Shown here: positions 36,157 through 64,000 of the stretch, in pieces
Layout of the letters: every line of letters begins with the position of its first letter
How positions within the stretch are numbered: position 1 is the stretch's first letter
DNA from: a virus
DNA length: 64,000 nt
Virus record (IMG/VR): IMGVR_UViG_3300017917_003379
Strand: one strand, 5' to 3'
The notes under the pieces: generated by a model
What the model was told of the DNA's origin: nothing
The model's database searches: none
The model's input: the letters and a program-made list of their open reading frames with translations, nothing else
Translations under genes and position numbers: made by a program

Positions 36157-36159
36157 GTT

Positions 36160-36774
36160 ATGAATAAACAAAGACTACAATATTTAGCAAACATATATCC
36201 TAAACCAGGAATAAATGATTTTGGATATATAATTGAACTAAAAAGAGAACAACTTATAGATACAATAGAAAAACCAAAAATCCCCCAAATTAAACTACTT
36301 AGAGAATACACTGAAAAGACAAGAAAATATATGGGGGTTGAACCGATAATAAGTGAATCAAATCCAAACAATGCTTATCCTATTAAAATAATATATAAAG
36401 ATAACAATCAAATTACCTGGTCATGTAAATATAAAGATGATCATGAAATGAGAATGGTTCTTAGATTAGTATCTAATAAGACATATGAGTTCCTATTTAT
36501 GTTTGAAGAAAGTAAAACATATTCAAGTCAAGAATATAAACCTGAAGGAAAAAATTATATAGATACTTTGGATAAGTGTATAAAAGATTATGTATTACCT
36601 TTTATAGATAAAGAACCCATAGGAACCTTTTTATATTTTAATTGTTATGATGAAGATGGTAAAGGATATATTAGAAGAAGAACATTTATGAACCTAATTA
36701 ATAAATACGTTGATAAAAATCATTATATAATAGAAGAAGATAATTTAGATATTAACATACAAAAAATAAAATAA
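36160..36774 (+). CDS. Hypothetical protein (paralog of 9670..10200)
   Basis: Shared C-terminal motif; sits between two GT4 genes. Confidence 0.55.
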   Translation: MNKQRLQYLANIYPKPGINDFGYIIELKREQLIDTIEKPKIPQIKLLREYTEKTRKYMGVEPIISESNPNNAYPIKIIYKDNNQITWSCKYKDDHEMRMVLRLVSNKTYEFLFMFEESKTYSSQEYKPEGKNYIDTLDKCIKDYVLPFIDKEPIGTFLYFNCYDEDGKGYIRRRTFMNLINKYVDKNHYIIEEDNLDINIQKIK

Positions 36775-36779
36775 GTTAT

Positions 36780-38084: not shown

Positions 38085-38136
38085 ATGAATAATACCGGTG
38101 CTGTAATTTATACATTTCAAAATAACACATTAAATT

Positions 38137-38529
38137 ATGAAAGAATCACTTATCATATGCCCACGATGCGGAAGTAACGCGTGTCATGAAGCATCAAATG
38201 AAAAATTTACTATGTGGAGTTGTTTCGGATGTGGGTTTACATCCAACTCTACAATGACAGATGAACATATTTCTCAAGTAGAAGAAACATTACCTGAATT
38301 ATATAAAGCATTAAAATTTAAAGACGAAAAAGGATATCATTGGTATCCCTTAGCTTTAACATTTGATGATAAATCCATGGTATTTGCTGAAGGCACCTCT
38401 ACATTAGACTGGAAATGGTCAGCTATACAATCTAAAAATGAAAAACCAGATATGACTACTAAAAAAGAATTTGAAGAACGTGACTTTATGGAAGCACTTG
38501 ATTATGTAGGATACTTTAACCAAAAATAA
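38137..38529 (+). CDS. Zinc-ribbon hypothetical protein
   Basis: CPRC...CFGCG. Confidence 0.55.
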   Translation: MKESLIICPRCGSNACHEASNEKFTMWSCFGCGFTSNSTMTDEHISQVEETLPELYKALKFKDEKGYHWYPLALTFDDKSMVFAEGTSTLDWKWSAIQSKNEKPDMTTKKEFEERDFMEALDYVGYFNQK

Positions 38530-38533
38530 ATTT

Positions 38534-39160
38534 ATGTCAACTATTAGTTTTGCAATAACTGCATATAATGAACACAATGAATTAGAACGTTTGTTGAATC
38601 AAATATTCAAAATTATTAAACCTGAAGATGAAATAGTACTTCAACTAGATACTAAAGCAACTGATGAAGTAAAAAATATAGCTAATAAACATAATGTTAA
38701 TACTCCTTTTGAATATCATAGAATAATTAAATCATTAGATGGTGATTTTGCATCATTTAAAAATAATCTTAAACAACATTGTACAAGAGATTGGATTATA
38801 TTTCTAGATGCAGACGAATATTTAAGTGATGGTTTAAAAAATAATCTCCATGAAATGCTCAAAATAAATAAAGGTTTAGTTGATGTTATTGCTTTACCTC
38901 GTATTAATACTGTTGAAGGCTTAACTCGTGATCATATTGACAAATGGAAATGGTTTGTTGATGAAAATAATTGGATTAACTATCCTGACTATCAACTCCG
39001 TATCTGTGCTAACAAACCAGAAATAAATTGGATTAATAAAGTACATGAGCGTTTATCTGGTTGGAAAACAATTGCTAACTTACCCCAAGGATATGATTTG
39101 ATACATCCTAAAACAATTGAACGCCAAGAAAAACAAAATCAATTTTACAACACATTATGA
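38534..39160 (+). CDS. Glycosyltransferase family 2
   Basis: ITAYNE, LDADE, PD.Q.R, VHE. Confidence 0.88.
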   Translation: MSTISFAITAYNEHNELERLLNQIFKIIKPEDEIVLQLDTKATDEVKNIANKHNVNTPFEYHRIIKSLDGDFASFKNNLKQHCTRDWIIFLDADEYLSDGLKNNLHEMLKINKGLVDVIALPRINTVEGLTRDHIDKWKWFVDENNWINYPDYQLRICANKPEINWINKVHERLSGWKTIANLPQGYDLIHPKTIERQEKQNQFYNTL

Positions 39161-40194
39161 AAATATTAGTTACAGGAGCGGGTGGATTAATAGGTTCTGA
39201 AGCAGTGGATCATTATTGTTACCAAGGACATAGTGTATACGGAATTGAAAATAACCAACGTCAAATATTCTTTGGGGAAAAAGGTAGTACGTTGTCTCGT
39301 CTTTCTCAATTAAAAGAAAAACATAATAACTTTACTAATTTTGAAATAGATATTAGAGACAAAGAAGTATTATTGTCTTTATTTAAACATATAAAGTTTG
39401 ACGTAATAATTCACACTGCTGCTCAACCATCACATGATAAAGCAGCCTCTATTCCCTTTGCTGATTTTGAAACAAATGCTAACGGTACTTTGCATTTGTT
39501 AGAAGCAGTTAGACAAACAAATAAGGATTGCATATTTGTTCATATGTCTACAAATAAAGTATATGGTGATAAACCAAATACATTAAATTTGATTGAACTA
39601 AATACTAGATATGAATATGCTGATCCTGAATATAAAGAAGGAATCAATGAGTTATTTTCAATTGATCAATCCAAACATTCTTTATTCGGCGCAAGCAAAG
39701 TAGCAGCAGACATAATGGTTCAGGAGTATGGACGTTATTTTAATATTCCAACTTGTATTTTGAGAGGAGGATGTTTAACTGGAGAAAACCATAGTGGAGT
39801 AGAATTACATGGTTTTTTAAATTATCTTGTAAAATGTAATATCCAAGAAATACAATATAATGTGTTTGGATACAAAGGCAAACAAGTAAGAGATAATATT
39901 CACTCATCAGATGTTGTACAATTTATAGATTTATTTATTGCTAATCCACGTGTTGCTGAAGTATATAATATAGGTGGAGGTAAAGATAATTCATGTTCTA
40001 TTCTAGAAGCATTTACTTTAGTAGAACAAATATCAGGTAAAAAAATGATCTATGAATATATAGATGAAAATAGAATAGGAGATCATATCTGTTATTATAG
40101 TGATTTATCTAAAATAAAAACTCATTATCCTCAATTTGGAATTACTAAAAATCTTAATTATATTATAGAAAACATTTATTTAAAATTAAAATGA
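39157..40194 (+). CDS. NAD-dependent sugar epimerase (CDP-paratose 2-epimerase-like)
   Basis: GAGGLIG, AAQPSHD, STNKVYG, FGASK, GKQVRDN. Confidence 0.88.
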   Translation: MKILVTGAGGLIGSEAVDHYCYQGHSVYGIENNQRQIFFGEKGSTLSRLSQLKEKHNNFTNFEIDIRDKEVLLSLFKHIKFDVIIHTAAQPSHDKAASIPFADFETNANGTLHLLEAVRQTNKDCIFVHMSTNKVYGDKPNTLNLIELNTRYEYADPEYKEGINELFSIDQSKHSLFGASKVAADIMVQEYGRYFNIPTCILRGGCLTGENHSGVELHGFLNYLVKCNIQEIQYNVFGYKGKQVRDNIHSSDVVQFIDLFIANPRVAEVYNIGGGKDNSCSILEAFTLVEQISGKKMIYEYIDENRIGDHICYYSDLSKIKTHYPQFGITKNLNYIIENIYLKLK

Positions 40195-40718
40195 GTAAAA
40201 GATACTTACATGTAGGATGTGGAAATGTTATTTTACCCCGCCCCTTTGAAAATCTAGACACCAGACCATTGGAAGGAGTAGATCATGTGTCGGAAGCATT
40301 TCCTCTTCCCTTTAACGACAATACATTTGATTTATTATATTCTTCTCATGTTCTAGAACATTTTGAAAAAGCTAAAACACAAGAAATAGTAAATGAATGG
40401 GTCCGCGTTATAAAACCTGGAGGTATTATTCGCTTATCAGTTCCTTCTTTAGAAAATCTTATTAAGATTTATCAAGTATCTGGTGATATAGAGTATATTA
40501 TAGGTCCGTTAATGGGCGGTCAAACGTACCTTCAAAATTTCCATTATAATATGTTCGATAAGAAAAAACTAACAGAATATTTAGAAAACGCTGGTTGTGA
40601 AGCTGTTCATCCTTGGGATTATAGAAGAACATCACATAGTAAATTTTTTGATTTTTCACAAGCAACTACTTGGGAAATTCCTATTAGTTTAAATTTAGAA
40701 GCTAGAAAATCATTGTGA
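40191..40718 (+). CDS. SAM-dependent methyltransferase (type 11)
   Basis: HVGCG, SHVLEH, RVIKPGG. Confidence 0.85.
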   Translation: MSKRYLHVGCGNVILPRPFENLDTRPLEGVDHVSEAFPLPFNDNTFDLLYSSHVLEHFEKAKTQEIVNEWVRVIKPGGIIRLSVPSLENLIKIYQVSGDIEYIIGPLMGGQTYLQNFHYNMFDKKKLTEYLENAGCEAVHPWDYRRTSHSKFFDFSQATTWEIPISLNLEARKSL

Positions 40719-41530
40719 TGAAAGTATTTGCTAAATTCTACGAATCAAAACAATTTATTGATATAGCTAATGAATTAAAATCAATAAAATGGTCATTATT
40801 TGTAGATGATATACCTACTTCTCAAGAAGACCTATCAGAACTAAATGTATTAGTATTATTAGAACCAAATGAATATTTCAAATTACATGATTGGGCTATA
40901 CAAAATAAACACTTATTTTCCTTAATATTAACATGGAGTGATAAAGTATTAAATAATTGTGAAAACGCAGTATTTTTACCTTTCGGAACTACTTGGCTTA
41001 ATAAAGAACAATATACTAGAAAATATGAAAAGAAGTTTCAAGTATCTCATGTTAGAGGACCCTTATTAAAAACCCAAGGACATGCTCTAAGATTTGAATA
41101 CCATGACAGAACCCCAGAATTAAAAATTTCTCATAAATCTTGGTTAACAGCAGGTATAAGAGAAAAAATAGAAACCTGTGCTGAGGCAAAAACGGAATTA
41201 TTTGGAGATGCTCAGTTCGGAGTGGTAATTGAAAATACCAGCCATAGAGGGTATTTTACTGAAAAAATAATGGAAATGTTTTTATTAAAAACAATTCCAG
41301 TATATTGGGGTTGTTCAAATATAGGAGATTTTTTTAATATAGAAGGGATTATTACATTCAATAATGTTGATGATTTAATATTCATTTTAAATAATTTAGA
41401 TGAAAATTATTATAGTTCAAAAATAAAAGTTATTGAAGAAAATTATAATGTAGCTATGAATTATTTAAGTGTTGAACATAATATTATAAATAAAGTAACA
41501 GAAATATTTAAATATAATAATTTAATATGA
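40718..41530 (+). CDS. GT10 (alpha-1,3-fucosyltransferase-like) glycosyltransferase
   Basis: IEN....GYFTEKI......IPVYWG. Confidence 0.8.
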   Translation: MKVFAKFYESKQFIDIANELKSIKWSLFVDDIPTSQEDLSELNVLVLLEPNEYFKLHDWAIQNKHLFSLILTWSDKVLNNCENAVFLPFGTTWLNKEQYTRKYEKKFQVSHVRGPLLKTQGHALRFEYHDRTPELKISHKSWLTAGIREKIETCAEAKTELFGDAQFGVVIENTSHRGYFTEKIMEMFLLKTIPVYWGCSNIGDFFNIEGIITFNNVDDLIFILNNLDENYYSSKIKVIEENYNVAMNYLSVEHNIINKVTEIFKYNNLI

Positions 41531-42078
41531 AACATTTTTATCAAGAACTAGGAGAAAACTGGTTTACATATCCTGGATTGTATTCAATGGTAGTAGAGAA
41601 ATTTCCTACTAATTCTCATTTTGTTGAAGTAGGAGTATGGAAAGGAATGAGTGCAGCTTATATGGCAGTTGAAATAATCAATTCAGGAAAAAATATTAAG
41701 TTTGATTGTGTAGATAACTGGGAATATATAGAAGAACAAAAGGAAATTCCAGAACATATGTTTGAAGGGCTATATGAAACTTTCTTAAAAAATATAGACC
41801 CAGTAAAGCATATAATAACACCTGTAAGAGAACTATCATGGGAAGGTGCTAAACATTATAAGGACAATTCATTAGATTTTATTTTTATTGATGCCGCTCA
41901 TGATTATGAAAGCGTAAAAAAAGATATTAATGCTTGGTTTCCTAAATTAAAAAAAGAAGGAATTATTGCCGGACATGATTATACGTGGTGTGATGATGTG
42001 AAGAGAGCAGTTAACGAATTTTTTGAAGGTAAGTCTATTTATGAAAATGAAGGATGTTGGATATATCCAAATGAATAG
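41527..42078 (+). CDS. Class I SAM methyltransferase (Methyltransf_24-like)
   Basis: EVGVWKG, FIDAAHDYE.V..D, GHDY. Confidence 0.87.
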   Translation: MKHFYQELGENWFTYPGLYSMVVEKFPTNSHFVEVGVWKGMSAAYMAVEIINSGKNIKFDCVDNWEYIEEQKEIPEHMFEGLYETFLKNIDPVKHIITPVRELSWEGAKHYKDNSLDFIFIDAAHDYESVKKDINAWFPKLKKEGIIAGHDYTWCDDVKRAVNEFFEGKSIYENEGCWIYPNE

Positions 42079-42081
42079 TAT

Positions 42082-42948
42082 ATGATTCAAATAGCAATAC
42101 ATGCATTGCCTCAAGAAATAGATAGATTAGAAGAAATTCTAATTCAACTAAAAAATAATTCTAACCATTTATTTTTAGAAAATAATATTATAGTTGATGT
42201 TATATTAAACCTTAATTTAGTTGAATGGAATAAATCTATCATACCAAAATCTTTTTTTATTAATAAATTTTACAATTTAGAAAAACTAACTCAGACATGG
42301 GCTAAAACTAAATTTGAAATTAATGAAGATGGTATAATACAAGGATGTGTTTCACATCGTAGAAAAATAACTAATGAAACACAAGCGGATGCTGTACTAT
42401 TACTTGATACAGATATAATATTTAGTCCAACTTTATTATTTCATTTATTTTGTTCGATTGATGTTTTAAAAAATATTACTCCATATTACATATTAACCCC
42501 ACAAATAACCCCAATGTGGGATAATAGTTGGGATGTAATAGTTAATGATCATTTTAAAAATGATGGTATTTACTTTCAAAATAGAGATTCATACAAGTAT
42601 GCTCAATGTTTAGGAGAAGTTAATTTAAAACCAATTAATCATTTTAAATTTGGAGGAGGATGGGCTACGTTAATTAGTACCCCATTACTTAAACATATTG
42701 GGATACCTGAATCTTTAGGACACTATGGTTTAGAAGACACATATATTATGTTATGCTCTCAAATAATGAAGCAAAAAGGAATGAATGTTACTCAATTTGT
42801 TCTTGAAAATGAAGTAATTTCTGAAGACCATTTATTTAGATTTAATCCATATAAAGATTACATATCAGTAATAGATAAAAGAGAAGAATTTAAACAAATA
42901 GCTCATAATAATTTTCAAAACGAAATAGATAAATTTAAGAAAAAATGA
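42082..42948 (+). CDS. GT-A fold glycosyltransferase-like protein
   Basis: LDTD (DxD), GHYGLEDT. Confidence 0.65.
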   Translation: MIQIAIHALPQEIDRLEEILIQLKNNSNHLFLENNIIVDVILNLNLVEWNKSIIPKSFFINKFYNLEKLTQTWAKTKFEINEDGIIQGCVSHRRKITNETQADAVLLLDTDIIFSPTLLFHLFCSIDVLKNITPYYILTPQITPMWDNSWDVIVNDHFKNDGIYFQNRDSYKYAQCLGEVNLKPINHFKFGGGWATLISTPLLKHIGIPESLGHYGLEDTYIMLCSQIMKQKGMNVTQFVLENEVISEDHLFRFNPYKDYISVIDKREEFKQIAHNNFQNEIDKFKKK

Positions 42949-43832
42949 AATATAATAGACCATTAGTATTTGGAGCAGCCGGAATGTTAGGAACTACACT
43001 TAAAAATGTAGCAGATGAAGTTAAATTTATTTTAACAGACAAAGATACAAGTACAGGATTAGAATTTTGTGATATACGAGATTTAACCTTAACTACTAAT
43101 ATAGTAAACAAATACAATCCTGATATAATTCTTAACTTTGCCGCTTTAGTTGATCTTGAATATTGCGAAACTGAAAAAGATGATTGTTATTTAACTAATA
43201 CTATAGCAGCTATACATCTATTTAATTTAGCCAAAGACAAAAATGTCCCTTATGTATTCATAAGTACTGCTGGTATATTCGGAAATGATAAAGAATTCTA
43301 TACAGAAGATGACCAACCTAAACCACTAAGTGCTTACGGTAAAAGCAAATATTACACTGAACAGTTACTTAAAAACCAAGGATATGAAAAATACTGGATT
43401 TTCAGAGCAGGATGGATGATGGGAGGGGGACCAGAAGTTGATAAAAAATTTGTAAATAAAATTATGAAGCAAATTAAAGCAGGATCAACAGAATTAAATG
43501 TTGTAGATGACAAACTAGGAGTACCCACCTATACTAAAGATTTTGCAAAATCTATTTTGAAACATATAGAAACGGATTTACCTTTTGGGCTATATAATAT
43601 GGTTAGTCAAGGAGAAGCAAGTAGATACGATACTGCTGTAGAAATAAATAACTATCTTGGGCTTAATTTAAAAATAAATAAAGTAGATAGTAATTTCTTT
43701 AAGGAAGAATATTTTGCTCAAAGACCCTTTTCTGAAAAATTAATTAATAAAGCATTAATAGATTTAAATAGAAACTATATGAGAGATTGGAAAGTATGTT
43801 TACATGAATATTTAGATGAATTTTATAAATAA
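42945..43832 (+). CDS. dTDP-4-dehydrorhamnose reductase-like SDR (RmlD family)
   Basis: GAAGMLG, NFAA, IST, YGKSK, PTY..D. Confidence 0.85.
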   Translation: MKYNRPLVFGAAGMLGTTLKNVADEVKFILTDKDTSTGLEFCDIRDLTLTTNIVNKYNPDIILNFAALVDLEYCETEKDDCYLTNTIAAIHLFNLAKDKNVPYVFISTAGIFGNDKEFYTEDDQPKPLSAYGKSKYYTEQLLKNQGYEKYWIFRAGWMMGGGPEVDKKFVNKIMKQIKAGSTELNVVDDKLGVPTYTKDFAKSILKHIETDLPFGLYNMVSQGEASRYDTAVEINNYLGLNLKINKVDSNFFKEEYFAQRPFSEKLINKALIDLNRNYMRDWKVCLHEYLDEFYK

Positions 43833-43839
43833 TACATAT

Positions 43840-44478
43840 ATGAAAAACGTATACGATATTACAGCAGAATTTGAAAAGCGCCTAGCAGAATACACAGGAG
43901 CTCCTTATGTAGTTACTCTTGACAATCAAAGCAATGGATTATTTTTAGCTTTAATGTATGAAAATGTCAAAGGAATAGAAATTGAAATTCCCTCTCGAAC
44001 ATATCCTTCAGTACCTTGTGAAATAATTCACGCCGGTGCTAAAGTTAAGTTTAAAGAAGTAAAAGGTAAAACAATTAAAGGAGCATATCAATTATCTCCT
44101 ACTAATGTTTGGGACAGTGCTTTACGTTTTACAGCAGACATGTATGTGCCTGGAACTCATATGTGTATTTCATTTACTGGCCCTTATAAGCATTTTAAAT
44201 TATCCAAAGGTGGAGCTATATTGACTGATAACTATGATGCATATCTGTGGTTTAAACGGGCCAGATATAGTGGACGTCGTGAATGTTCATACCATGAAGA
44301 TCATTTTGATATGTTAGGGTGGAACTTCTATATGATGCCTGAATTAGCAGCTAGAGGATTATTGTTAATGAATCAGTTTTATAATGGAGAAGGTAAACCA
44401 AAACATAATGATGATTTAGAACTACCATATCCGGATTTGTCTAAATTTGAAATATACACAAAAGCAAATAGAGAATAG
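43840..44478 (+). CDS. DegT/DnrJ/EryC1 family PLP aminotransferase (short form)
   Basis: FE..LAEY.G, TYPSV, DSA, SF...K..GGAILT, GWNFYM. Confidence 0.8.
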   Translation: MKNVYDITAEFEKRLAEYTGAPYVVTLDNQSNGLFLALMYENVKGIEIEIPSRTYPSVPCEIIHAGAKVKFKEVKGKTIKGAYQLSPTNVWDSALRFTADMYVPGTHMCISFTGPYKHFKLSKGGAILTDNYDAYLWFKRARYSGRRECSYHEDHFDMLGWNFYMMPELAARGLLLMNQFYNGEGKPKHNDDLELPYPDLSKFEIYTKANRE

Positions 44479-44501
44479 GCAAAATAGATTTGCTATATTT
44501 A
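44478..44501 (+). promoter_or_regulatory. Phage promoter inside the glycan island
   Basis: GGCAAAA-N9-TATATTTA upstream of ATG 44508. Confidence 0.55.
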
Positions 44502-44507
44502 AAAAAT

Positions 44508-45758
44508 ATGAAAAAAATATTAATTCTGGGAGCTAACCCAGAAACTATACCTCTTATAAAAACAGCGAAATCTATGGGGTTGTATACTATAGTTACAGAC
44601 CCCGATCCAAAGGCTCCTGCAAAAATTGAAGCGGACAGAGGAATCAATATTAATGGAATGGATGTAGAGGCGTTAGTGGATTTCAGTAGACAAGAAAAAA
44701 TAGATGGTATTTTGGTTGGTGTAGCAGATAGATTAATTGAACCCTATCAAAAAGTATGTGAAATTCTTAATTTACCATGCTATGGCAATAAACATCAATG
44801 TGAAGTCCTCACAAATAAAGGAAAATTTAATGATCTATGTAAAAAATATAATATTTCAACTATTCCTTCATTTTCTCTTTATAAAAAAGATATTAATGTA
44901 AATCTAGAAAATGTAATATATCCTGTTTTTATAAAACCCGTTGATAGAAATTCTGGAAAAGGAATGTCTATAGCGTATAATGAAACAGAATTAAGAGAAG
45001 GAATTGAGAAAGCTTTCAATAACACAAATGGTGATTATATCTTATTAGAAAGATATATGACATGTGAGGATATTTTGGTAAGTTACACTATTGTAGATGG
45101 TGAACCTATATTATCCGCCATAGCAGATAGATATACTTGTAAAGAACAAAATAAAACAAGTCAAGTATGTTTAGGAGCAGTTTATCCTTCAAATCTATTA
45201 AACGTTTATATGGATAAAGAGCATTCTAAAATGGTTAGAATGTTAAAAGGTATAGGTTTAAAAAATGCTATTCTTACAATATCGGCTTTTGTTGAAAATG
45301 ATAATTTTTATTATTATGATCCTGGATTTAGACTTCAAGGTGAAGCTCCTAATCTCCATATGGAAAACATAAATAAATTTGATCAAAAGAAGTTTTTAAT
45401 AGATATAGCTTTAAACAATAATTTAGTTGGTAAAAACGAAATAACTAAAGCTGATTTTCAAAATAAATATGCTGCTACTATTTGGGTTCTTCTAAAAAAA
45501 GGTACAATACATCAAATAACTGGGTTTGAAAAAATAGAAAAAGATCCTTCTGTGTTTCATATATCAAGACGTCTATTTGAAGGTGATATAGTTAATGAAG
45601 AAATGACAGGTACTGAAAGTCAAGTTATGGCTAGAATTTATATATGTTGTTCAACAAAGCAAAAATTAAAAGATAAAATACTAGAAATTCAAAATACAAT
45701 ACAGGTATTTGATAGTGAAGGTAACAATCAACTTTTTAATAAGTTTATTTTGAAATAA
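44508..45758 (+). CDS. ATP-grasp ligase
   Basis: KILILGA, NK, YPVFIKPVD.NSGKG, ERY. Confidence 0.85.
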   Translation: MKKILILGANPETIPLIKTAKSMGLYTIVTDPDPKAPAKIEADRGININGMDVEALVDFSRQEKIDGILVGVADRLIEPYQKVCEILNLPCYGNKHQCEVLTNKGKFNDLCKKYNISTIPSFSLYKKDINVNLENVIYPVFIKPVDRNSGKGMSIAYNETELREGIEKAFNNTNGDYILLERYMTCEDILVSYTIVDGEPILSAIADRYTCKEQNKTSQVCLGAVYPSNLLNVYMDKEHSKMVRMLKGIGLKNAILTISAFVENDNFYYYDPGFRLQGEAPNLHMENINKFDQKKFLIDIALNNNLVGKNEITKADFQNKYAATIWVLLKKGTIHQITGFEKIEKDPSVFHISRRLFEGDIVNEEMTGTESQVMARIYICCSTKQKLKDKILEIQNTIQVFDSEGNNQLFNKFILK

Positions 45759-45769
45759 AATATCTAAAT

Positions 45770-46528
45770 ATGAATAAAGAAACATTTGTTATAGCCGGAG
45801 GCACTAGAGGAGTAGCTAAACAAGTAGTAATTGAACTTGTTAAAATGGGAAATAATGTTGTTTTTGGTGATCTTGGTGACAACGGTAATGAAAAGGAATT
45901 TATAACTGAACTAAAAGAATATAAAGGTAATGCTTATTTTATTTTAACAGATGTAACAAAAATAACTGACTGTGAGCGTTTATTTAGAATTGCTTATGAA
46001 ATATTTGGTCGCATTGATGGATTTTTTAGCTATGCCGGAATTACACCTGCTCAATCTTTATTAGAATGTACTGAAGATGTACATGATGATATATTTAATG
46101 TAAATGTGAAAGGAGCATTATTTTGTTCTAAATATGCTGTAAAATATATGAAAGAAAATAATGGTGGATCAATAGTATTTACTGGTTCTCCACACTCGTG
46201 GGCAGGGGAATTTGATAGAGTTTCTTATGCTTGCTCAAAAGGAGCCATTGTTACTTTAGCAAATCATATAGCTAAAAATTATGGTAAACATAATATACGA
46301 TCCAATTACATAACAATGGGTTGGACACCCACAGAAGGAGAATTATCTTTAAGAGAAAGCCAAGGAATGTCTAAAGAAGAATTAAAAAAATATGCCTCAG
46401 AATTTATCCCTATGGGGCGCATGAATGAATATGATGATATTGTTCCTGCAATAATCTATTTATTATCTAACAAATCAAAAATGGTATCTGGATCTAATAT
46501 TAGAATTACAGGTGGTTGGTTTATGTAA
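45770..46528 (+). CDS. Classical SDR oxidoreductase
   Basis: GGTRGVA, GRID, YACSKG, MGR, GSNI.I.GG. Confidence 0.88.
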   Translation: MNKETFVIAGGTRGVAKQVVIELVKMGNNVVFGDLGDNGNEKEFITELKEYKGNAYFILTDVTKITDCERLFRIAYEIFGRIDGFFSYAGITPAQSLLECTEDVHDDIFNVNVKGALFCSKYAVKYMKENNGGSIVFTGSPHSWAGEFDRVSYACSKGAIVTLANHIAKNYGKHNIRSNYITMGWTPTEGELSLRESQGMSKEELKKYASEFIPMGRMNEYDDIVPAIIYLLSNKSKMVSGSNIRITGGWFM

Positions 46529-46538
46529 TTAAAAAGTT

Positions 46539-47747
46539 ATGAGTAATCCTTTAGTAAGTATAATAATTCCTATATATAATAGTGAAGCATTCCTGGATAA
46601 ATGTATCCAAAGTGCAAGAAATCAATCATATAAAAATTTAGAAATTATTCTTGTTAATGATGGTTCAACAGATACTTGTAAAGACATATGTGGGAGATAT
46701 GCTTCTATTGATAGTAGAATTAAACCTATTCATAAAACTAATGGAGGATTAGTAAGTTCTAGAAAAGCAGGACTTAAAGCATCAACAGGAGAATATGTTT
46801 TATACATTGATGGTGATGATTGGATTGAATCAGACACTATAGAACATTATGTATATCATGCTTTAAAATATAATGCTGATGTTGTTGTAGCTTCTCATAT
46901 AGTAAACCTAGAAGGAAGAAAAGACATTTTGTCTAACCACATCTCTTCAGGAATTTATAATAAGGGTGAACTCAAATCGATAGTCTATCCTAAAATGTTA
47001 TATACAGGAAAATTTTCTCAATTTGGGATATTTTCATATTCGTGGGGAAAATTATATAAAAAAGAAATATTATTAGAAAATCAATTAAACGTTGCTGAAG
47101 ATATAACTATTGGAGAGGACGCTTTATGTTTATATCCAACATTATTAGATGCTAATACTTTAGTTGTTTTAGAACAACCTTATTATCATTATAGACAAAG
47201 AGCAAATTCATTAATCAAAACTTTAAGAACAATTGAATTACCTAAAATGCAAAAAGTCTATAATAACCTTAAAAATATATTTTCAAATAAAGGTGTTCTA
47301 GACATAATGTTGCCTCAACTTCAATACTACATTTTAAGTTTATTAATAATCAATACAGAAGGTCCTAATCCAAACGATACAACAACATTATATCCTTTTA
47401 ATAATATTAGTCTTGAAAAGGACATAGTCATATATGGTGGAGGCACATTTGGGCAACATTTATATAAAAAAATATTAAAAAATAATAAATATGCCCTTCA
47501 AGCATGGGTAGATGAAAAACATAAACATTATTCTAAATTAAATCTACCAGTAACAGGTTTTAATAATATTAAATCTATTAAATACGATGCTATTTTAATA
47601 GCATTAATTGATGAGGATAACTCTAATATAGCTTTTTCTAAATTAATAGAGAATGGAGCCGACAAAGAAAAAATAATTCAACTTCCCTACTATAACCAAA
47701 AAGAAAATATACAAAATCTTTTATTAGAATATAAAATCAATTTATAA
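46539..47747 (+). CDS. GT2 glycosyltransferase with C-terminal Rossmann-like domain
   Basis: SIIIPIYN, VNDGSTD, IDGDD, GED, YRQR; YGGGTFG. Confidence 0.9.
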   Translation: MSNPLVSIIIPIYNSEAFLDKCIQSARNQSYKNLEIILVNDGSTDTCKDICGRYASIDSRIKPIHKTNGGLVSSRKAGLKASTGEYVLYIDGDDWIESDTIEHYVYHALKYNADVVVASHIVNLEGRKDILSNHISSGIYNKGELKSIVYPKMLYTGKFSQFGIFSYSWGKLYKKEILLENQLNVAEDITIGEDALCLYPTLLDANTLVVLEQPYYHYRQRANSLIKTLRTIELPKMQKVYNNLKNIFSNKGVLDIMLPQLQYYILSLLIINTEGPNPNDTTTLYPFNNISLEKDIVIYGGGTFGQHLYKKILKNNKYALQAWVDEKHKHYSKLNLPVTGFNNIKSIKYDAILIALIDEDNSNIAFSKLIENGADKEKIIQLPYYNQKENIQNLLLEYKINL

Positions 47748-47748
47748 T

Positions 47749-48567
47749 ATGGAATTAATCTTCTATGCTGGATCAAGTCTATTAGAAGGGCCCATTTGGG
47801 ATCCAAATAACAAATTAATATATTGCGTATCAATAGAACAAGGAATAATCTATCAGATTAATCCTAATTCAGGAAGAGTGCAATCTTATATTACTGATGG
47901 GAGTGTAGGATGTGTAGCTCTAATGGAAAATGGAAATCTTATATCTGCAGAAAAGGGAGGCATATATATTATTAACCCGGAAACAAGAGAAAAAACATAT
48001 TTAACTCAACTTGAATCAGATAATAATTTACGATATAATGATGGAAAATTAGACCCAGTAGGTAGATTTATTGTGGGAACTAAAAGTGAAAAAGATTATT
48101 TTATTGAAGAAACCGTTGTAAAAGGTAAATTATTTTCATATCATGATGGAGTTTACAAAGTATTACTAAATGATCTACTAATATCAAATGGAATTGGGTT
48201 TTCTCATGACAAAGAAAAAATGTATTTTATAGATAGCCCTACAAAGAAAGTAAATCAATATAAGTACGATATAAACACAGGAGAAATAACATTTGAAAAA
48301 CATATTATTGAAATTGACGGCAATGGTATCCCAGATGGAATGTGTGTTGATTTAGATGGAAATATATGGGTAGCAGAATGGGAAGGAGGGAGAGTTCGTA
48401 AGTGGGATGTTAATACTGGAAAGGTATTAGATGAAATAATAGTACCTTGCCCAAGAGTAACTTCATGCTGTTTAGGTGGAGAGGACTTTAAAGAGTTGTA
48501 TATTACAACAGCTAAAGATAACAGCAATAATCTTGGAGGTGCATTGTTCAGAAAAAAACTAAATTAA
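47749..48567 (+). CDS. SMP-30/gluconolactonase family lactonase
   Basis: EGP.W, RYNDG..DP.GR, SNG.GFS, PDGM.VD, VTSC..GG. Confidence 0.92.
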   Translation: MELIFYAGSSLLEGPIWDPNNKLIYCVSIEQGIIYQINPNSGRVQSYITDGSVGCVALMENGNLISAEKGGIYIINPETREKTYLTQLESDNNLRYNDGKLDPVGRFIVGTKSEKDYFIEETVVKGKLFSYHDGVYKVLLNDLLISNGIGFSHDKEKMYFIDSPTKKVNQYKYDINTGEITFEKHIIEIDGNGIPDGMCVDLDGNIWVAEWEGGRVRKWDVNTGKVLDEIIVPCPRVTSCCLGGEDFKELYITTAKDNSNNLGGALFRKKLN

Positions 48568-48570
48568 AAT

Positions 48571-49152
48571 ATGATTATCCCTTCTAAATTTGATAATGAT
48601 ACTTTTTCTCTCACTCGAGAACATCTTAATTTGTTCATTAACCGAGTAGCAAAAGAGTATGGGAGTGTAAATAAGAAATTACTTGAAATAGGACCTCAAG
48701 ATAGATCCGAAGTTAGAGTAGCATTCAATATGTGTAATATTGAAACTCTAGATTTAGTACCTGATTATAATCCTGATATTGTAGGTGATATTACAAAATA
48801 CAACTCTCATATACAAGATTCAACCTATGACATTATAACATGCTTAGAAATACTTGAACATACTATCAACCCGTTTTCAGCTATTGAAGAGCTTAGACGT
48901 ATAACAACAGATGGTGGATTAATATTGTTTTCAGCTCCATTAAATTGGAGAATACACGGTCCTGTTCCGGATTGTTGGAGATTTACTGAGTTTGGATGGA
49001 AAATACTATTAAAAGATTTTGATATTCTTGAAATAGATAAGTTAGAAACACCAGATAGAAATCTATTTCCGATTAAATACAATATATTAGCAAAATGCAA
49101 TAAATCAAAAAATATAGATGTTTATTCTATGAAATTTGAACCTCTAAAATAA
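48571..49152 (+). CDS. SAM-dependent methyltransferase
   Basis: LEIGP, GDI, EILEH, HGP..D.WRFT. Confidence 0.82.
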   Translation: MIIPSKFDNDTFSLTREHLNLFINRVAKEYGSVNKKLLEIGPQDRSEVRVAFNMCNIETLDLVPDYNPDIVGDITKYNSHIQDSTYDIITCLEILEHTINPFSAIEELRRITTDGGLILFSAPLNWRIHGPVPDCWRFTEFGWKILLKDFDILEIDKLETPDRNLFPIKYNILAKCNKSKNIDVYSMKFEPLK

Positions 49153-49158
49153 CAACTT

Positions 49159-49872
49159 ATGAAGTTACATATATTTTATTGTCACTATAATATAACAGGT
49201 ACAGACCATAAAGGTAGACCTCGTTGGTTTGATTACGAAAAATGTTTTATTAATCTTTTAAATACTATTGAAGGTAAAAATAATATAGAACTCCACGTGA
49301 TAATGGATGGTACTATTGAAAACAACTGGATAAGCAAATATAAAGATAAATACATTGCTCATGAAATTGTTACAACTCATGATATGGATTCTGTAACAAG
49401 GGGAGTATATCCTATTATAAGAAAAACAAAATGTAAAGATACAGATCTTGTCTATCTTTTAGAAAATGATTATTTACATGTTGATGATTGGGTAGATAAA
49501 ATTTTTGATATTTTTCAAACATTTGGGGGGTTAAATTATGTATCTTTATACGACCATGGAGATAAATACTGGCATCCTAACTATGATGATTTAGTGTCTA
49601 AAATATTTGCTTCTAATACACATCATTGGAGAACAATGATATCTACTTGTGGTAGTTATGTTACAACTAAAAAAATATTCGATGAAGATTTTGATGATCA
49701 TACTGGGGTTACAATTCCTATAGGTGATCACCATAAATGGGTATTTTTAAATGAAACTAAAGGTAGATTTATTTTAACGCCTGTTCCTGGTTTATCTACC
49801 CATTGTATGGAAGCTTTCTTATCACCTACTATAGATTGGGAAAAAATAAATAATAAAACAAAAACAAATTAA
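49159..49872 (+). CDS. GT-A fold glycosyltransferase-like protein
   Basis: YLLENDYLH, LYDH.DKY, PGLSTH. Confidence 0.7.
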   Translation: MKLHIFYCHYNITGTDHKGRPRWFDYEKCFINLLNTIEGKNNIELHVIMDGTIENNWISKYKDKYIAHEIVTTHDMDSVTRGVYPIIRKTKCKDTDLVYLLENDYLHVDDWVDKIFDIFQTFGGLNYVSLYDHGDKYWHPNYDDLVSKIFASNTHHWRTMISTCGSYVTTKKIFDEDFDDHTGVTIPIGDHHKWVFLNETKGRFILTPVPGLSTHCMEAFLSPTIDWEKINNKTKTN

Positions 49873-49875
49873 AAT

Positions 49876-50670
49876 ATGATATCATTAATTATTCCCACAT
49901 ATAGAAACCCTGAATATTTAGACATCTGCTTAAAATCAGCAATTGATAACCAAGTAAACAAAAATGAAATTATCGTTTCTGTTGATGGACATATTGAAGA
50001 AAGTCAATATGTTTTAGACAAATATAAAGACAGTATTGTTATTTTAGATTTAGGAGAAAATCAAGGATTTCAAACTTCCCACAACTTAGCTGTCATGAAT
50101 GCTAATAATGAAACCATTTGTATAATAAATGATGATAATGTTTTATGTAAAGAGTGGGATGTACTTATAGAACAAGATTTTGATTTAAATAAAGTAATGA
50201 CTATAGAACAAATCGAACCTGTTGGGCCTAGCATATTTGGTTTTCATATCAAAGATTTTGGTAAAACTCCTAAAGATTTTGATTATGAGGCTTTTATCAA
50301 ATATGAATTAACTATTAGAGAAAACAAACTAACTAAAGATGGAGGAATATTTCCTTTTGTTATTTCAAAGAAAAATTACATGATAGTAGGTGGATTTGAT
50401 ACTTTATATCCATCACCATATGTATGTGATTGGGACTTTTTTCTAAAATTAGATCTCAATAATGTAGAATTTTACAAAACACATAATTTACATCTTTATC
50501 ATTTTGGTAGCACAGTATTAAAAAAAGGAATCGACAAGGACAAATTTGCCTCTTCTCATAACCCAGCAGCAGAAACTTTCTATTACAAATGGGGAATGTA
50601 CCCTCACTTATTTGAAAATAACAGCCATAAACCAAAACAAACAATTATTAAGGGGATAAAATATGAGTAA
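49876..50670 (+). CDS. Glycosyltransferase family 2
   Basis: IIPTY, NDDN, GGFD..Y, DWD, YHFGS. Confidence 0.85.
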   Translation: MISLIIPTYRNPEYLDICLKSAIDNQVNKNEIIVSVDGHIEESQYVLDKYKDSIVILDLGENQGFQTSHNLAVMNANNETICIINDDNVLCKEWDVLIEQDFDLNKVMTIEQIEPVGPSIFGFHIKDFGKTPKDFDYEAFIKYELTIRENKLTKDGGIFPFVISKKNYMIVGGFDTLYPSPYVCDWDFFLKLDLNNVEFYKTHNLHLYHFGSTVLKKGIDKDKFASSHNPAAETFYYKWGMYPHLFENNSHKPKQTIIKGIKYE

Positions 50671-61533: not shown

Positions 61534-61609
61534 GGGAGGGTATAGGCTCATTCTTATACAATGTTGAAACCTTAGCTGGTACACGTGGGTTCGAACCCCA
61601 CCCCTCCTA
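61534..61609 (+). ncRNA. Non-canonical tRNA-like RNA (possible UAU anticodon, no D arm)
   Basis: Acceptor GGGAGGG/CCCTCCT-A; T arm GTGGG-TTCGAAC-CCCAC; CATT-CTTATAC-AATG. Confidence 0.65.
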
Positions 61610-61733: not shown

Positions 61734-61891
61734 AGTCAGGTGGCGGATTGGTTAGACGCACCAACATTACTTAGGGGAGATGGGCTTTTATATTGTGCCC
61801 ACCACCTGCCAGGTTTTAGTCTTTATGACCAGCTAACAAAGACAGTAATGAAGGAATATAAGAGCAGAGAGTTCGATTCCTGCCCTGACTA
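61734..61891 (+). ncRNA. tRNA-like RNA with greatly expanded anticodon arm
   Basis: AGTCAGG/CCTGACT-A acceptor; D arm GCG..TGG..CGC; TTCGA T loop; internal CATTACT/AGTAATG stem with sub-hairpins. Confidence 0.65.
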
Positions 61892-62605: not shown

Positions 62606-62625
62606 CAACATTTTTAATTTTGGTT

Positions 62626-62760
62626 ATGAAAGAAAAAATAGGCACAATTTGTGTCACATTAATCTCAATTGTTTTAATATTTAAAGACAGTCCACTTATG
62701 GCATTGTTTGTATTAATGGCTTATGGTTTTTATAAACTTGAAAAAGATGAATCAACGTAA
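62626..62760 (+). CDS. Small membrane protein (44 aa)
   Basis: MKEKIGTICVTLISIVLIFKDSPLMALFVLMAYGFYKL...; GTTATG leader. Confidence 0.45.
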   Translation: MKEKIGTICVTLISIVLIFKDSPLMALFVLMAYGFYKLEKDEST

Positions 62761-62989
62761 TGAACAGGGTAAAAGACATGGTTATTGGGAAGACTATTAT
62801 GCCAATGGTCAATTATGGAGGAAGGGTTATTATAAAAATGGCAAAGAAGATGGTTATTGGGAATCCTATCATGACAATGGTCAATTACGGGGGAAAGGTC
62901 ATTTTAAGAATGGTGAACAAGATGGTTATTGGGAATGGTATCATGATAATGGTCAATTGTGGTTTAAAGAATTTTATGCAAGAATGTAA
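62747..62989 (+). CDS. MORN-variant (YwqK-like) repeat protein, copy 1 (3 units)
   Basis: MNQRNEQG + GYWE.Y..NGQL..KG.YK.G repeats + FYARM; ATG 62747 chosen by alignment with paralogs. Confidence 0.8.
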   Translation: MNQRNEQGKRHGYWEDYYANGQLWRKGYYKNGKEDGYWESYHDNGQLRGKGHFKNGEQDGYWEWYHDNGQLWFKEFYARM

Positions 62990-62995
62990 ACCTGA

Positions 62996-63316
62996 ATGAA
63001 TATGAATCAACTTAATGAAAAAGGAAATAGAGAAGGTTATTGGGAACAGTATTATTCCGATGGTCAATTATACTATAAAGGTCATTATAAGGATGGCAAT
63101 AGGGAAGGTTATTGGGAATATTATTGGTCTAATGGTCAATTATCATGTAAAGGTCATTATAAGAATGACAAACGAGAAGGTTATTGGGAAGACTATTATC
63201 CCAGTGGTCAATTATTGTCTAAGGGTCATTATAAGGATGGTAAACCAGATGGTTATTGGGAAGGATATTATGAGAATGGTCAATTATGTTATAAATCATT
63301 TTATGCCAGAATGTAA
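62996..63316 (+). CDS. MORN-variant repeat protein, copy 2 (4 units)
   Basis: Same N-cap, 24-aa repeats and C-cap. Confidence 0.82.
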   Translation: MNMNQLNEKGNREGYWEQYYSDGQLYYKGHYKDGNREGYWEYYWSNGQLSCKGHYKNDKREGYWEDYYPSGQLLSKGHYKDGKPDGYWEGYYENGQLCYKSFYARM

Positions 63317-63322
63317 ACCTGA

Positions 63323-63571
63323 ATGAATATGAATCAACTTAATGAAAAAGGAAATAAAGATGGTTATTGGGAATGGTATTGTCCCAATGGTCAATTGGAA
63401 TATAAGGGTCGGTATAAGGATGGTAAACTTGAAGGTTATTGGGAAGGGTATCATGACAATGGTCAATTAGCGTGGAGAGGTCATTATAAGGATGACAATT
63501 ATGATGGTTATTGGGAATGGCATCATACCAATGCCCAATTATGCTGGAAAGAATTTTTTGCAAGAATGTAA
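63323..63571 (+). CDS. MORN-variant repeat protein, copy 3 (3 units)
   Basis: Same architecture. Confidence 0.82.
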   Translation: MNMNQLNEKGNKDGYWEWYCPNGQLEYKGRYKDGKLEGYWEGYHDNGQLAWRGHYKDDNYDGYWEWHHTNAQLCWKEFFARM

Positions 63572-63577
63572 ATCTGA

Positions 63578-64000
63578 ATGGATATGAATCAACATAATGA
63601 AAATGGAAATAAAGAAGGTTATTGGGAAGACTATTGGTTTAATGGTAAATTATGGTTTAAAGGTCATTATAAGGATGGTAAAGAAGAGGGTTATTGGGAA
63701 GGCTATTATTCAAATGGTCAATTAGAGTGGAAAGGAAATTATAAGAATGGTAAACATCATGGTTATTGGGAATCGTATTTTTCAGATGGTCAATTATCAT
63801 GTAAAGGTCATTATAAGAATGGTAAACGGGATGGTTATTGGGAAGAGTATCATGACAATGGTCAATTATGGTATAAGGGTGATTATAAGAATGACAAACG
63901 AGAAGGTTATTGGGAAGACTATTATTCCAATGGTCAATTAATGTGGAAAGGTCATTTTAAGAATGGTGAACAAGAGGGGTATTGGGAAAAGCGTTATTCC
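63578..64000 (+). CDS. MORN-variant repeat protein, copy 4 (6 or more units; 3'-truncated by window)
   Basis: MDMNQHNENG + repeats, open to the window end. Confidence 0.82.
   Translation, partial: MDMNQHNENGNKEGYWEDYWFNGKLWFKGHYKDGKEEGYWEGYYSNGQLEWKGNYKNGKHHGYWESYFSDGQLSCKGHYKNGKRDGYWEEYHDNGQLWYKGDYKNDKREGYWEDYYSNGQLMWKGHFKNGEQEGYWEKRYS

What the first reader, a model, noticed from the sequence alone, without database searches (positions are those of the whole stretch)
62747..64000. Antibody-like array: tandem MORN-variant genes with invariant scaffold and hypervariable codons
Seen: at least four tandem genes with common N-cap (MNQxNExG), C-cap (FY/FARM) and linker (TAAAYCTGAATG), holding 3, 4, 3 and 6+ copies of a 24-aa unit. 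GGTTATTGGGAA is identical in 15 of 16 units, even at synonymous sites. The codons after WE, after WExY and after GQL vary widely (after WE: D,S,W,Q,Y,D,G,W,G,W,D,G,S,E,D,K; after QL: WR,RG,WF,YY,SC,LS,CY,EY,AW,CW,WF,EW,SC,WY,MW). They are rich in W/Y/F/H/C and in GC-rich codons atypical for this genome. Established: MORN-variant/YwqK-like repeats form extended beta-sheets that bind proteins. Inference: a diversifying binder library (VLR/DARPin-like) that could neutralise host toxins or defence sensors. This is the best candidate for an undescribed system here.
Basis: partly seen in the sequence, partly recalled or inferred. Interest (0 to 1): 0.85.

Follow-up and report, generated by a model that had tools for sequence, protein, structure and literature searches.

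The report
Phage array of mini MORN-variant binder genes
A T4-like phage from a metagenome carries a row of small sister genes, each built from 3 to 6 or more copies of one 24-residue beta-hairpin with a fixed frame and about eight fast-changing, aromatic-rich positions. Related phages carry dozens of such genes, so this is probably an inherited set of protein binders used inside the host, with unknown targets.

Summary
There are four co-oriented genes (62747-64000, the last cut by the window end) with 3, 4, 3 and 6 units of 72 bp, shared caps and a 12-nt linker. All are Pfam MORN_2.

This is not a local oddity. Metagenomic and IMG/VR phage contigs hold arrays of 29 to more than 50 such genes, up to about 25 kb. 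The AlphaFold model (pLDDT 95) is a MORN-type single-layer beta-sheet.

Eight positions per unit vary. They are 37-45% W/Y/F/H/C against 14% background. They keep rare GC-ending codons, which look like footprints of recent amino-acid changes.

Tree-based counts give dN/dS of 4-6 at positions 5, 8, 13 and 23 in one related array and about 2 in another. In the window itself the values are 1.2-2.1 and not significant (11 units).

Antibody-like active diversification is not supported:
- No reverse transcriptase was found.
- The codon pattern is not DGR-like.
- One related array is identical (1 mismatch in 4,304 nt) in two separate assemblies.

Best reading: a germline multigene family of intracellular binders, resembling bacterial homogeneous polyimmunity loci of YwqK-type immunity proteins. 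Targets are untested.

This scan has noted comparable MORN-like phage arrays before on other DNA. I found no paper describing them.

The parts
62747..62989 (+). Mini-MORN gene 1: 80 aa, N-cap MNQRNEQG, 3 units, C-cap EFYARM. Its start overlaps the end of a 46-aa hydrophobic ORF (62620-62760).
   Evidence: (MORN_2 60.7 bits)
62996..63316 (+). Mini-MORN gene 2: 106 aa, or 104 aa from the ATG at 63002. 4 units, C-cap SFYARM. This is the protein that was modelled.
   Evidence: 71.5 bits; pLDDT 95.4
63323..63571 (+). Mini-MORN gene 3: 82 aa, or 80 aa from 63329. 3 units, C-cap EFFARM.
   Evidence: (27.8 bits, just under the cut-off)
63578..64000 (+). Mini-MORN gene 4: open at the window and contig end, 141 aa so far. 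5 full units plus a cut sixth.
   Evidence: (58.2 bits)
62987..62998 (+). Inter-gene linker TAAACCTGAATG (stop codon, 6 nt, start codon). It recurs at 63314-63325 and, as TAAATCTGAATG, at 63569-63580. No terminator-like site lies within the array.
62780..64000 (+). Sixteen 72-bp units. Numbering is from the G of GYWE. Scaffold: G1 Y2 W3 E4 Y6 N9 G10 Q11 L12 K15 G16 Y18 K19 N20 G21. Variable positions: 5, 7, 8, 13, 14, 17, 22, 23.

Best explanation
The array is part of an inherited (germline) multigene family of small, cytoplasmic MORN_2 repeat proteins. Each protein is a capped single-layer beta-sheet of 2-8 hairpins. It shows its own set of aromatic-rich residues at about eight positions per hairpin on an otherwise fixed frame.

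The genes are probably read from one transcript (6-nt gaps, no internal terminator) outside the late virion modules.

How the family most likely grows and changes (inferred):
- Unequal recombination between 72-bp units and between genes changes unit and gene number.
- Point substitutions at the variable codons are kept by selection.
- Gene conversion or recent descent keeps the scaffold DNA alike.

The most likely job is stoichiometric binding of variable host (or rival-phage) proteins inside the infected cell. That would make it a phage counterpart of bacterial homogeneous polyimmunity loci. It fits the one tested member of the annotation family, YwqK, which binds and neutralises the deaminase toxin YwqJ.

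Shown here: anatomy, fold, family, recurrence in other phages, site-specific fast evolution in the larger arrays, and no sign of an active mutator. Inferred only: co-transcription, timing, binding, and the nature of the targets.
For: Anatomy and family.

Fold: the AlphaFold2 model has pLDDT 95.4 with eight strands in hairpins. Foldseek matches the SET7/9 MORN domain, RSPH1, MORN1 and junctophilin-2 bound to a CaV1.1 peptide.

Recurrence in other phages:
- L001/L002 are one phage in two assemblies. They hold at least 50 genes over more than 17 kb.
- L003 and the IMG/VR record G001 give at least 149 MORN_2 unit matches between 90 and 115 kb of a 115.7-kb fragment.
- Arrays with the window's MNQ-type cap occur in IMG/VR contigs of 148.7 and 77.7 kb.
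- The ESM Atlas holds 30 clusters of small 'MORN variant' proteins that are 100% viral.

Modularity: protein lengths follow 10 + 24n residues (58, 82, 106, 130, 154).

Variable versus scaffold positions:
- Per-position entropy gives the same eight variable positions in all arrays.
- A protein from a 157.8-kb contig (P0001) matches window gene 1 at 37 of 42 scaffold positions but only 3 of 21 variable positions.

Selection:
- Parsimony counts on unit trees give dN over global dS of 6.2, 5.9, 6.4 and 4.4 at positions 5, 8, 13 and 23 in L003 (site tests P = 0.011 and 1.5e-5 for positions 5 and 8).
- In L001/L002 the values are 2.1-2.4 at positions 8, 13 and 23 (positions 14 and 23: P = 4e-5 and 0.003).
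- Scaffold positions are mostly 0.5 or below. Nearest-neighbour pairs agree.
- Variable positions are 37-45% W/Y/F/H/C and 5-8% aliphatic, against 14% and 30% in the background. None of the 108 variable codons in the window is a stop, although random codons would be stops 8.8% of the time.
- The rare codons CGG, GGG, TCG, GCG and the NCC series are one step from TGG or from each other. This fits recent amino-acid changes without synonymous adjustment.

No export signal: the N-caps are polar.

Literature: YwqK co-purifies with and protects against YwqJ (bioRxiv 10.64898/2026.09.29.755374). Homogeneous polyimmunity loci are described in PMC3482391.
Against: - No target is known and no binding was tested.
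- In the window itself, variable sites give dN/dS of only 1.2-2.1, not significant with 11 full units. Pairwise omega within variable codons is about 1, so relaxed constraint is not excluded for this array.
- The variable sites were picked by their variability, which inflates their dN. Scaffold dS may be lowered by codon bias and gene conversion.
- The trees rest on 72-nt units and are poorly resolved.
- Some copies in L001 carry in-frame stops or frameshifts, so part of the family decays.
- No toxin gene lies next to the array, unlike ywqJK.
- Expression timing is inferred only from the absence of a late-type motif and from position in the genome.
Confidence: 0.55

Rival explanations
1. Neutral 'accordion'. 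The array is a by-product of easy unequal recombination between 72-bp repeats in a highly recombinogenic T4-like genome. The variable positions are simply unconstrained surface residues of a stable scaffold, and the copies have little or no individual function.
For: - In the window, omega at variable codons is about 1.
- Pseudogenised copies occur in L001.
- A UvsX/RecA-like recombinase is encoded at 6103-7206.
- Exact blocks of 31-49 nt are shared between non-adjacent units.
Against: - dN exceeds dS 2- to 6-fold at the same positions in two other arrays.
- Composition at variable sites is far from the random-codon expectation: W is 6-12% against 1%, and there are no stops.
- Dozens of intact ORFs with conserved caps persist in several phage lineages.
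- One array takes up about 25 kb of a phage genome, a large cost for DNA without function.
Confidence: 0.2
2. Virion-borne or exported adhesins. The proteins decorate the particle or act outside the cell to bind variable surfaces, as proposed for the signal-peptide-bearing MORN2 proteins of Fusobacterium.
For: - Weak, below-cut-off NCBIfam matches to the LIC20035 adhesin family.
- Fusobacterium MORN2 expansions are predicted surface proteins (PMC4222103).
- Cellular relatives in Bacteroidota are long proteins with signal-peptide-like N-termini.
Against: - The phage proteins have polar N-caps and no signal peptide or membrane segment.
- The array lies beside tRNA genes and small ORFs, not in a structural module. 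The candidate late motif noted for this genome is absent on the + strand after 61099.
- Tens of paralogues do not suit a fixed virion stoichiometry.
Confidence: 0.1
3. Active, mechanism-driven hypermutation or cassette assembly (DGR-like, VLR-like), as the 'antibody-like' title implies.
For: - Variation is sharply focused on a few codons.
- Many NNC codons occur at position 8 in the window (9 of 15) and NAC codons at position 7 in L001.
Against: - No RVT_1 match in five array-bearing viral records totalling 403 kb, and none among 20 window ORFs. The records are fragments, and 89.5 kb of this contig could not be read.
- The third base at the most variable codons is C, G, T or A, not fixed.
- No template repeat was found.
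- There are dozens of target genes, not one C-terminal variable region.
- L001 and L002 differ at 1 of 4,304 nt.
Confidence: 0.03
4. Assembly artefact. The array, which sits at a contig end, could be a mis-joined or collapsed repeat.
For: The window ends inside gene 4. The contigs behind L001, L002 and G001 also end inside arrays.
Against: - All four frames are open, with regular caps and linkers.
- Units differ by 7-20 nt from their nearest neighbours, enough for unique assembly.
- Two independent assemblies agree over 4.3 kb of a related array.
- Copy number may still be under-counted.
Confidence: 0.03

Closest known systems
Homogeneous polyimmunity loci of polymorphic-toxin systems (Zhang et al. 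2012, PMC3482391) and the YwqK immunity protein of B. subtilis (bioRxiv 10.64898/2026.09.29.755374)
   Same: - Tandem, co-oriented, closely packed paralogues of one small binding-protein family.
- JGI labels relatives of the window proteins 'antitoxin component YwqK'.
- YwqK works by binding its toxin.
   Different: - The array is in a lytic-type T4-like phage, not a bacterium.
- No toxin gene or recombinase lies beside it.
- Paralogues differ mainly at eight positions per repeat and are not distantly related.
- Immunity function is untested.
- I could not test whether B. subtilis YwqK itself matches PF07661.
Fusobacterium (and Helicobacter) MORN2 gene expansions (McGuire et al. 2014, PMC4222103)
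   Same: - Same Pfam family (PF07661).
- Many copies per genome, variable repeat number, and rearrangement-prone clusters.
   Different: - 87% of the fusobacterial proteins have signal peptides and are proposed adhesins.
- The phage proteins are small (58-202 aa) and capped, have no signal peptide, and sit in strict head-to-tail arrays.
Eukaryotic MORN repeat proteins with solved structures (SET7/9 N-domain 1h3i, MORN1 6t4d/6t68, RSPH1 7dmp/8j07, junctophilin-2 7rxq)
   Same: Single-layer antiparallel sheet of repeated hairpins (Foldseek E 2e-5 to 7e-3, TM 0.55-0.69 by query). Several of these proteins bind peptides or partner proteins on the sheet.
   Different: - The phage unit is 24 residues of the MORN_2 type, with W where canonical MORN has the second G of GxG.
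- The phage proteins are stand-alone minimal proteins, and their variable positions evolve fast.
Giant-virus and poxvirus tandem multigene families of repeat proteins (for example Pandoravirus MORN, ankyrin and F-box families, PMC6418002; poxvirus gene accordions, from general knowledge)
   Same: Virus-encoded, tandemly duplicated repeat-protein genes thought to adapt to host factors.
   Different: - The host is a bacterium.
- There is no F-box or other adaptor domain.
- The proteins are far smaller.
- The arrays are denser, with genes 6 nt apart or overlapping by 4 nt.
Diversity-generating retroelements and lamprey VLRs
   Same: A fixed scaffold with variation focused on a few codons that are rich in Y, W and S.
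   Different: No reverse transcriptase, template repeat or adenine-specific pattern was found, and there is no sign of somatic or population-level turnover.

Membership tests
Pfam MORN_2 (PF07661) | Whole-protein score over the gathering cut-off of 29.6 bits, from repeated matches to the 22-position profile | tested here: met
   Genes 1, 2 and 4 score 60.7, 71.5 and 58.2 bits. Gene 3 scores 27.8 bits, just under the cut-off, but is co-linear with the others.
MORN-type fold (single-layer beta-sheet of hairpin repeats) | Each repeat forms one beta-hairpin, and the hairpins stack into one extended antiparallel sheet | tested here: met
   The AlphaFold2 model has pLDDT 95.4 and pTM 0.83, with 8 strands in 4 hairpins. 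Foldseek top hits are SET7/9, RSPH1, MORN1 and junctophilin-2. This is a prediction, not a solved structure.
YwqK-type immunity protein of a polymorphic toxin | Encoded directly downstream of its cognate toxin gene (LXG or another polymorphic toxin) | tested here: not met
   Upstream of the array are tRNA-Met and ORFs of 46, 60 and 79 aa without family matches. No toxin domain lies in the flanks of L002 or L003 either.
YwqK-type immunity protein of a polymorphic toxin | Binds and neutralises a toxin domain | not testable with these tools
   No candidate partner is known.
Homogeneous polyimmunity locus (PMC3482391) | Four or more tandem, co-oriented paralogues of one immunity family, arranged as if read from one message | tested here: met
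   The window holds 4 genes with 6-nt gaps and no terminator-like site. Scan notes report 7 more at the other contig end (not verified here). Relatives hold 29 to more than 50 genes. That these are immunity proteins is not shown.
Diversity-generating retroelement target | A reverse transcriptase plus a template repeat, with differences confined to template adenines | tested here: not met
   No RVT_1 match in 20 window ORFs or in 5 viral records. The third codon base is not fixed. Only inter-unit direct repeats were found. The upstream 89.5 kb of the contig could not be read.
Somatically or population-level diversified receptor (antibody or VLR-like) | Sequence differs between individuals or samples of one lineage | tested here: not met
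   The related array L001/L002 shows 1 mismatch in 4,304 nt between two assemblies. These are consensus assemblies only, and read-level data were not available for this window.
PHROGs / PADLOC / NCBIfam named families | A significant match to a curated phage, defence or NCBI naming model | tested here: not met
   PHROGs gives only weak hits to the unknown-function families phrog_7324 and phrog_16210. PADLOC gives none. NCBIfam gives only LIC20035 adhesin, far below its cut-off (18-53 bits against 250).

The most novel reading that the evidence does not exclude
Large phages of AT-rich aquatic hosts carry inherited libraries of tens of YwqK-type mini-binders. Each paralogue would neutralise a different variant of a polymorphic host toxin or abortive-infection effector. 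This would be a phage 'polyimmunity' strategy in which breadth comes from gene number and fast evolution at about eight codons per repeat, and it would be a general, undescribed mode of counter-defence.
Probability: 0.25. Interest if true: 0.8.

Novelty: new variant of a known kind. Interest (0 to 1): 0.6.

Why it matters
If these proteins are binders, they form a natural, very compact scaffold of 24 residues per module, with pLDDT 95 predicted from only 18 sequences. Evolution has already mapped its tolerated and functional positions across hundreds of units.

For phage biology, arrays that take up 10-25 kb of a genome point to a strong and recurring selective pressure that nobody has identified. 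Finding the targets could reveal a polymorphic host defence or toxin system and how phages answer it.

The family is missing from PHROGs and is nearly absent from deposited phage genomes (2 of 50,697 records). It is common in metagenomes, so it is a blind spot of current annotation.

Tried and rejected
Searches for the source or for near-identical DNA found nothing:
- megablast against phages
- exact 53-mer in IMG/VR and in metagenome contigs
- exact-protein look-ups of three window proteins and of P0001

No whole genome is held, so the 89.5 kb upstream of the window, including the reported seven further copies, could not be read.

Tools that gave nothing usable:
- The genome search cannot reach the metagenome contigs behind L001-L003.

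Searches that added little:
- The profile search of 1.84 billion representatives returned 74,340 hits, led by bacterial proteins of about 1,095 aa, and said nothing about the mini forms.
- The Helicobacter equorum 'phage' hit is a prophage region with ordinary Helicobacter MORN2 genes and is not a comparable array.
- Pfam found nothing for the C-terminal 'MDEIAKKFGI..QLKIKK' tail of some relatives or for the small ORFs before the array.
- The sigma-70 promoter scan was uninformative in this AT-rich DNA.
- Pairwise Nei-Gojobori over all unit pairs is saturated at the variable codons. It was replaced by nearest-neighbour and tree-based counts.

Rejected reading: the N-cap 'QLNE' as a prohead-protease tag. 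Only two of the four genes have L-x-E, and other lineages use a different cap.
Full report
**What is in the window**

Bases 62747-64000 hold four head-to-tail + strand ORFs. They encode 80, 106 (104 from the second ATG), 82 (80) and more than 141 residues. The last ORF runs off the window end.

Each protein has three parts:
- a polar N-cap: MNQRNEQG, MNQLNEKG (twice) or MNQHNENG
- 3, 4, 3 and 6 copies of a 24-residue unit
- a C-cap: (E/S)F(Y/F)ARM

The genes are separated by TAAACCTGAATG or TAAATCTGAATG. All 16 units begin with GYWE, and 15 of them read GGTTATTGGGAA.

Pfam assigns genes 1, 2 and 4 to MORN_2 (PF07661) well over the cut-off. Gene 3 falls just under it.

**Context**

The window is an AT-rich (30% GC) T4-like phage genome with all large ORFs on one strand. 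Features found:
- gp32, UvsX/RecA-like protein, RNase H-like exonuclease, DnaB-like helicase, clamp loader, a PD-(D/E)XK nuclease and QueC
- purA and purB homologues and a sugar-nucleotide/glycosyltransferase block
- a thymidylate synthase-sized ORF and five tRNA genes

Its DNA polymerase is only 35% identical to the nearest deposited phage, Microcystis phage Mel-JY01.

Scan notes place the window at the end of a 153.5-kb contig. They report seven more MORN-variant copies in the contig's first 4.3 kb. I could not read that part. If the notes are right, the array straddles the ends of a circularly permuted genome and has about 11 genes.

**The array is one instance of a recurrent phage feature**

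| Source | What it holds |
|---|---|
| P0001, on a 157.8-kb JGI contig (not retrievable) | 80-aa protein, 70% identical, same caps |
| L001 and L002 (one phage, two assemblies) | Overlap of 4,304 nt with one mismatch; together at least 50 tandem genes over more than 17 kb, many overlapping by ATGA; some copies hit by stops or frameshifts |
| L003 (289.7-kb contig) and IMG/VR record G001 (115.7 kb, CheckV 33% complete) | The same or a near-identical array; at least 149 MORN_2 unit matches between 90.2 and 115.4 kb, all on one strand |
| IMG/VR contigs of 148.7 and 77.7 kb | Nine small genes each, with the window's MNQxN cap and an EFYL-type C-cap |
| ESM Atlas | 30 all-viral clusters of 83-113-aa 'MORN variant' proteins |

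Protein lengths follow 10 + 24n residues, so the genes differ by whole units.

In curated resources the family is nearly invisible:
- 2 of 50,697 phage records hold a relative.
- There is no PHROG with a solid match, no PADLOC model and no NCBIfam name.
- Cellular relatives sharing the cap-like motif are all Bacteroidota, but they are long proteins with signal-peptide-like N-termini. This hints weakly at the host phylum.

**Fold**

AlphaFold2 on gene 2, with 17 four-unit homologues in the alignment, gives pLDDT 95.4. The model has eight strands paired into four hairpins. Foldseek finds the MORN domains of SET7/9, RSPH1, MORN1 and junctophilin-2 bound to a CaV1.1 peptide, and engineered single-layer OspA sheets.

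Each unit consists of:
- strand A: positions 22-24 and 1-6
- a five-residue loop: positions 7-11
- strand B: positions 12-19
- an N-G turn: positions 20-21

**Where the variation sits**

Entropy per position picks the same eight positions (5, 7, 8, 13, 14, 17, 22, 23) in the window, L001/L002 and L003.

Positions 5, 7, 8, 13 and 14 flank the long loop. Positions 17, 22 and 23 flank the tight turn. The middle of both strands is fixed.

From the two-residue-turn register and strand alternation I infer two faces:
- one face carries W3, x5, L12, x14, Y18 and x23
- the other carries Y2, E4, Y6, x13, K15, x17, K19 and x22

So variable residues lie on both faces, near the two edges of the sheet.

**Nature of the variation**

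Composition:
- Variable positions are 45% W/Y/F/H/C in the window and 37-39% in the relatives, against 14% in background ORFs.
- Only 5-8% are aliphatic, against 30% in the background.
- Random codons at this base composition would give 1% W and 8.8% stops. The window's 108 variable codons hold 12% W and no stop.

Codons:
At positions 5, 8 and 13, 26 of 37 non-TGG/ATG codons end in G or C, against 15.7% in the background (P = 2e-13).
- The rare codons seen (CGG, GGG, TCG, GCG, TTG, TGC; GAC, GGC, GCC, TCC, CCC, ACC) are one step from TGG or from one another.
- I read this as recent amino-acid-changing substitutions at first and second codon positions, without time for the third base to drift to A or T.
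- Likewise, Lys-19 is AAG in 11 of 12 units against 12% in the background. This points to shared descent or gene conversion of the scaffold, not to codon preference.

**Selection**

Fitch reconstruction on FastTree trees of the unique full units gives the following. dN is expressed relative to the unit-wide synonymous rate.

| Array | Units | Positions and dN / global dS | Per-site binomial tests |
|---|---|---|---|
| L003 | 78 | 5, 8, 13, 23: 6.2, 5.9, 6.4, 4.4 | position 5 P = 0.011; position 8 P = 1.5e-5 |
| L001/L002 | 124 | 8, 13, 23: 2.1-2.4 | position 14 P = 4e-5; position 23 P = 0.003 |
| Window | 11 | variable positions: 1.2-2.1 | none significant |

Most scaffold positions are at or below 0.5.

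Nearest-neighbour unit pairs give pN(variable)/pS(all) of 1.2-3.2 in the relatives, apart from one small class of 7 L002 pairs at 0.8, and 1.4 in the window. Scaffold pN/pS is roughly 0.2-0.85, always well below the variable-site values.

Between genomes, P0001 and gene 1 share 88% of scaffold residues but 14% of variable residues.

Caveats:
- The sites were chosen by their variability.
- Codon bias and conversion may depress scaffold dS.
- Trees built on 72 nt are weak.

**No active diversifier**

- The third base at the hottest codons is not fixed, unlike DGR NNC codons.
- There is no template repeat.
- None of 20 window ORFs of 250-490 aa is a reverse transcriptase.
- Five array-bearing viral records (403 kb in all, every one a fragment) have no RVT_1 match, while the control genomes do.
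- The L001/L002 array is the same in two assemblies.

A UvsX-type recombinase is present. Blocks of 31-49 identical bases are shared between non-adjacent units. Both fit unequal recombination and conversion.

**Function**

The proteins have no export signal, lie beside tRNA genes and small ORFs, and are not preceded by the late-type motif noted for this genome.

The only functional anchor is the annotation family. JGI labels relatives 'antitoxin component YwqK'. B. subtilis YwqK is the immunity protein that co-purifies with and protects against the ssDNA cytidine deaminase toxin YwqJ.

Tandem arrays of paralogous immunity genes are known in bacteria as homogeneous polyimmunity loci. They are thought to pre-empt a changing set of incoming toxins.

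The phage arrays look like that arrangement, but they lack any adjacent toxin gene and sit in a virus. I therefore favour an inherited library of intracellular binders against variable host (or rival) proteins, at about 55%. The main alternative is neutral accordion-like expansion of an unconstrained scaffold, at about 20%.

**Novelty**

Literature searches for MORN, MORN_2 or YwqK together with phage terms found no description of such phage arrays. The nearest descriptions are Fusobacterium MORN2 expansions and giant-virus MORN families.

This scan has already noted comparable MORN-like arrays in other large phages. Those are unchecked AI notes and do not count as independent evidence.

I class the finding as a new variant of a known kind: virus- or bacterium-encoded tandem families of repeat-protein binders.

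Noticed in passing
window 61734-61891 (+): A 158-nt element starts with AGTCAGG and ends with a T-arm-like GAGTTCGATTCCTGCCCTGACT followed by A. These are the same acceptor halves that a scan note (e1-5732050) reports for two 'anticodon-less tRNA mimics' at the other end of this contig. ARAGORN and Rfam do not call it a tRNA. It may be a third copy of a tRNA-framed RNA with a large insert.
   Followed up: partly
window 61534-61609 (+): A sub-threshold tRNA match (Rfam RF00005, 26.9 bits against a cut-off of 29) lies directly after tRNA-Leu(taa). ARAGORN does not call it.
   Followed up: no
P0002, P0007, L006:384-899, L064:1414-1692: Some MORN_2 relatives end in a conserved tail..(L/V)(S/T)MDEIA(K/E)KF(G/N)I(P/S)V(N/E)QLKI(K/T)K. 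A scan note (e1-5732053) reports a second repeat family with QLKIK caps at the start of this same contig. The tail has no Pfam match. It may be a shared docking or DNA-binding module.
   Followed up: partly
L001 6520-6570, 7165-7215, 8745-8795; L002 4850-4900: A conserved intergenic element of about 48 nt (GAATTGCGTAACTTAATTATTATTCATATCTTTACATAAAATATTATAT, then the ATG) recurs at least four times inside the large related array. It possibly marks internal promoters that split the array into sub-operons.
   Followed up: partly
L060 9989-12447; L069 10174-10416: Another phage subfamily joins 2-4 MORN_2 units to a conserved C-terminal extension (..YYKGYYDMGKxVDYEV..(D/E)MFPIY). L060 holds seven tandem copies.
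   Followed up: no
L018-L022 (metagenome contigs, GC 20-23%): Tandem genes built from a different MORN_2-like unit (GIYKSY..NGQL..EVNYID.KKN) occur in extremely AT-rich contigs of unknown origin.
   Followed up: no
window 16067-16918; 31319-33707; 34696-50670: The phage encodes QueC (7-deazaguanine pathway, suggesting modified DNA), adenylosuccinate synthetase and lyase, and a long block of epimerases, dehydratases, an RmlD-like reductase, an ATP-grasp enzyme and glycosyltransferases.
   Followed up: partly
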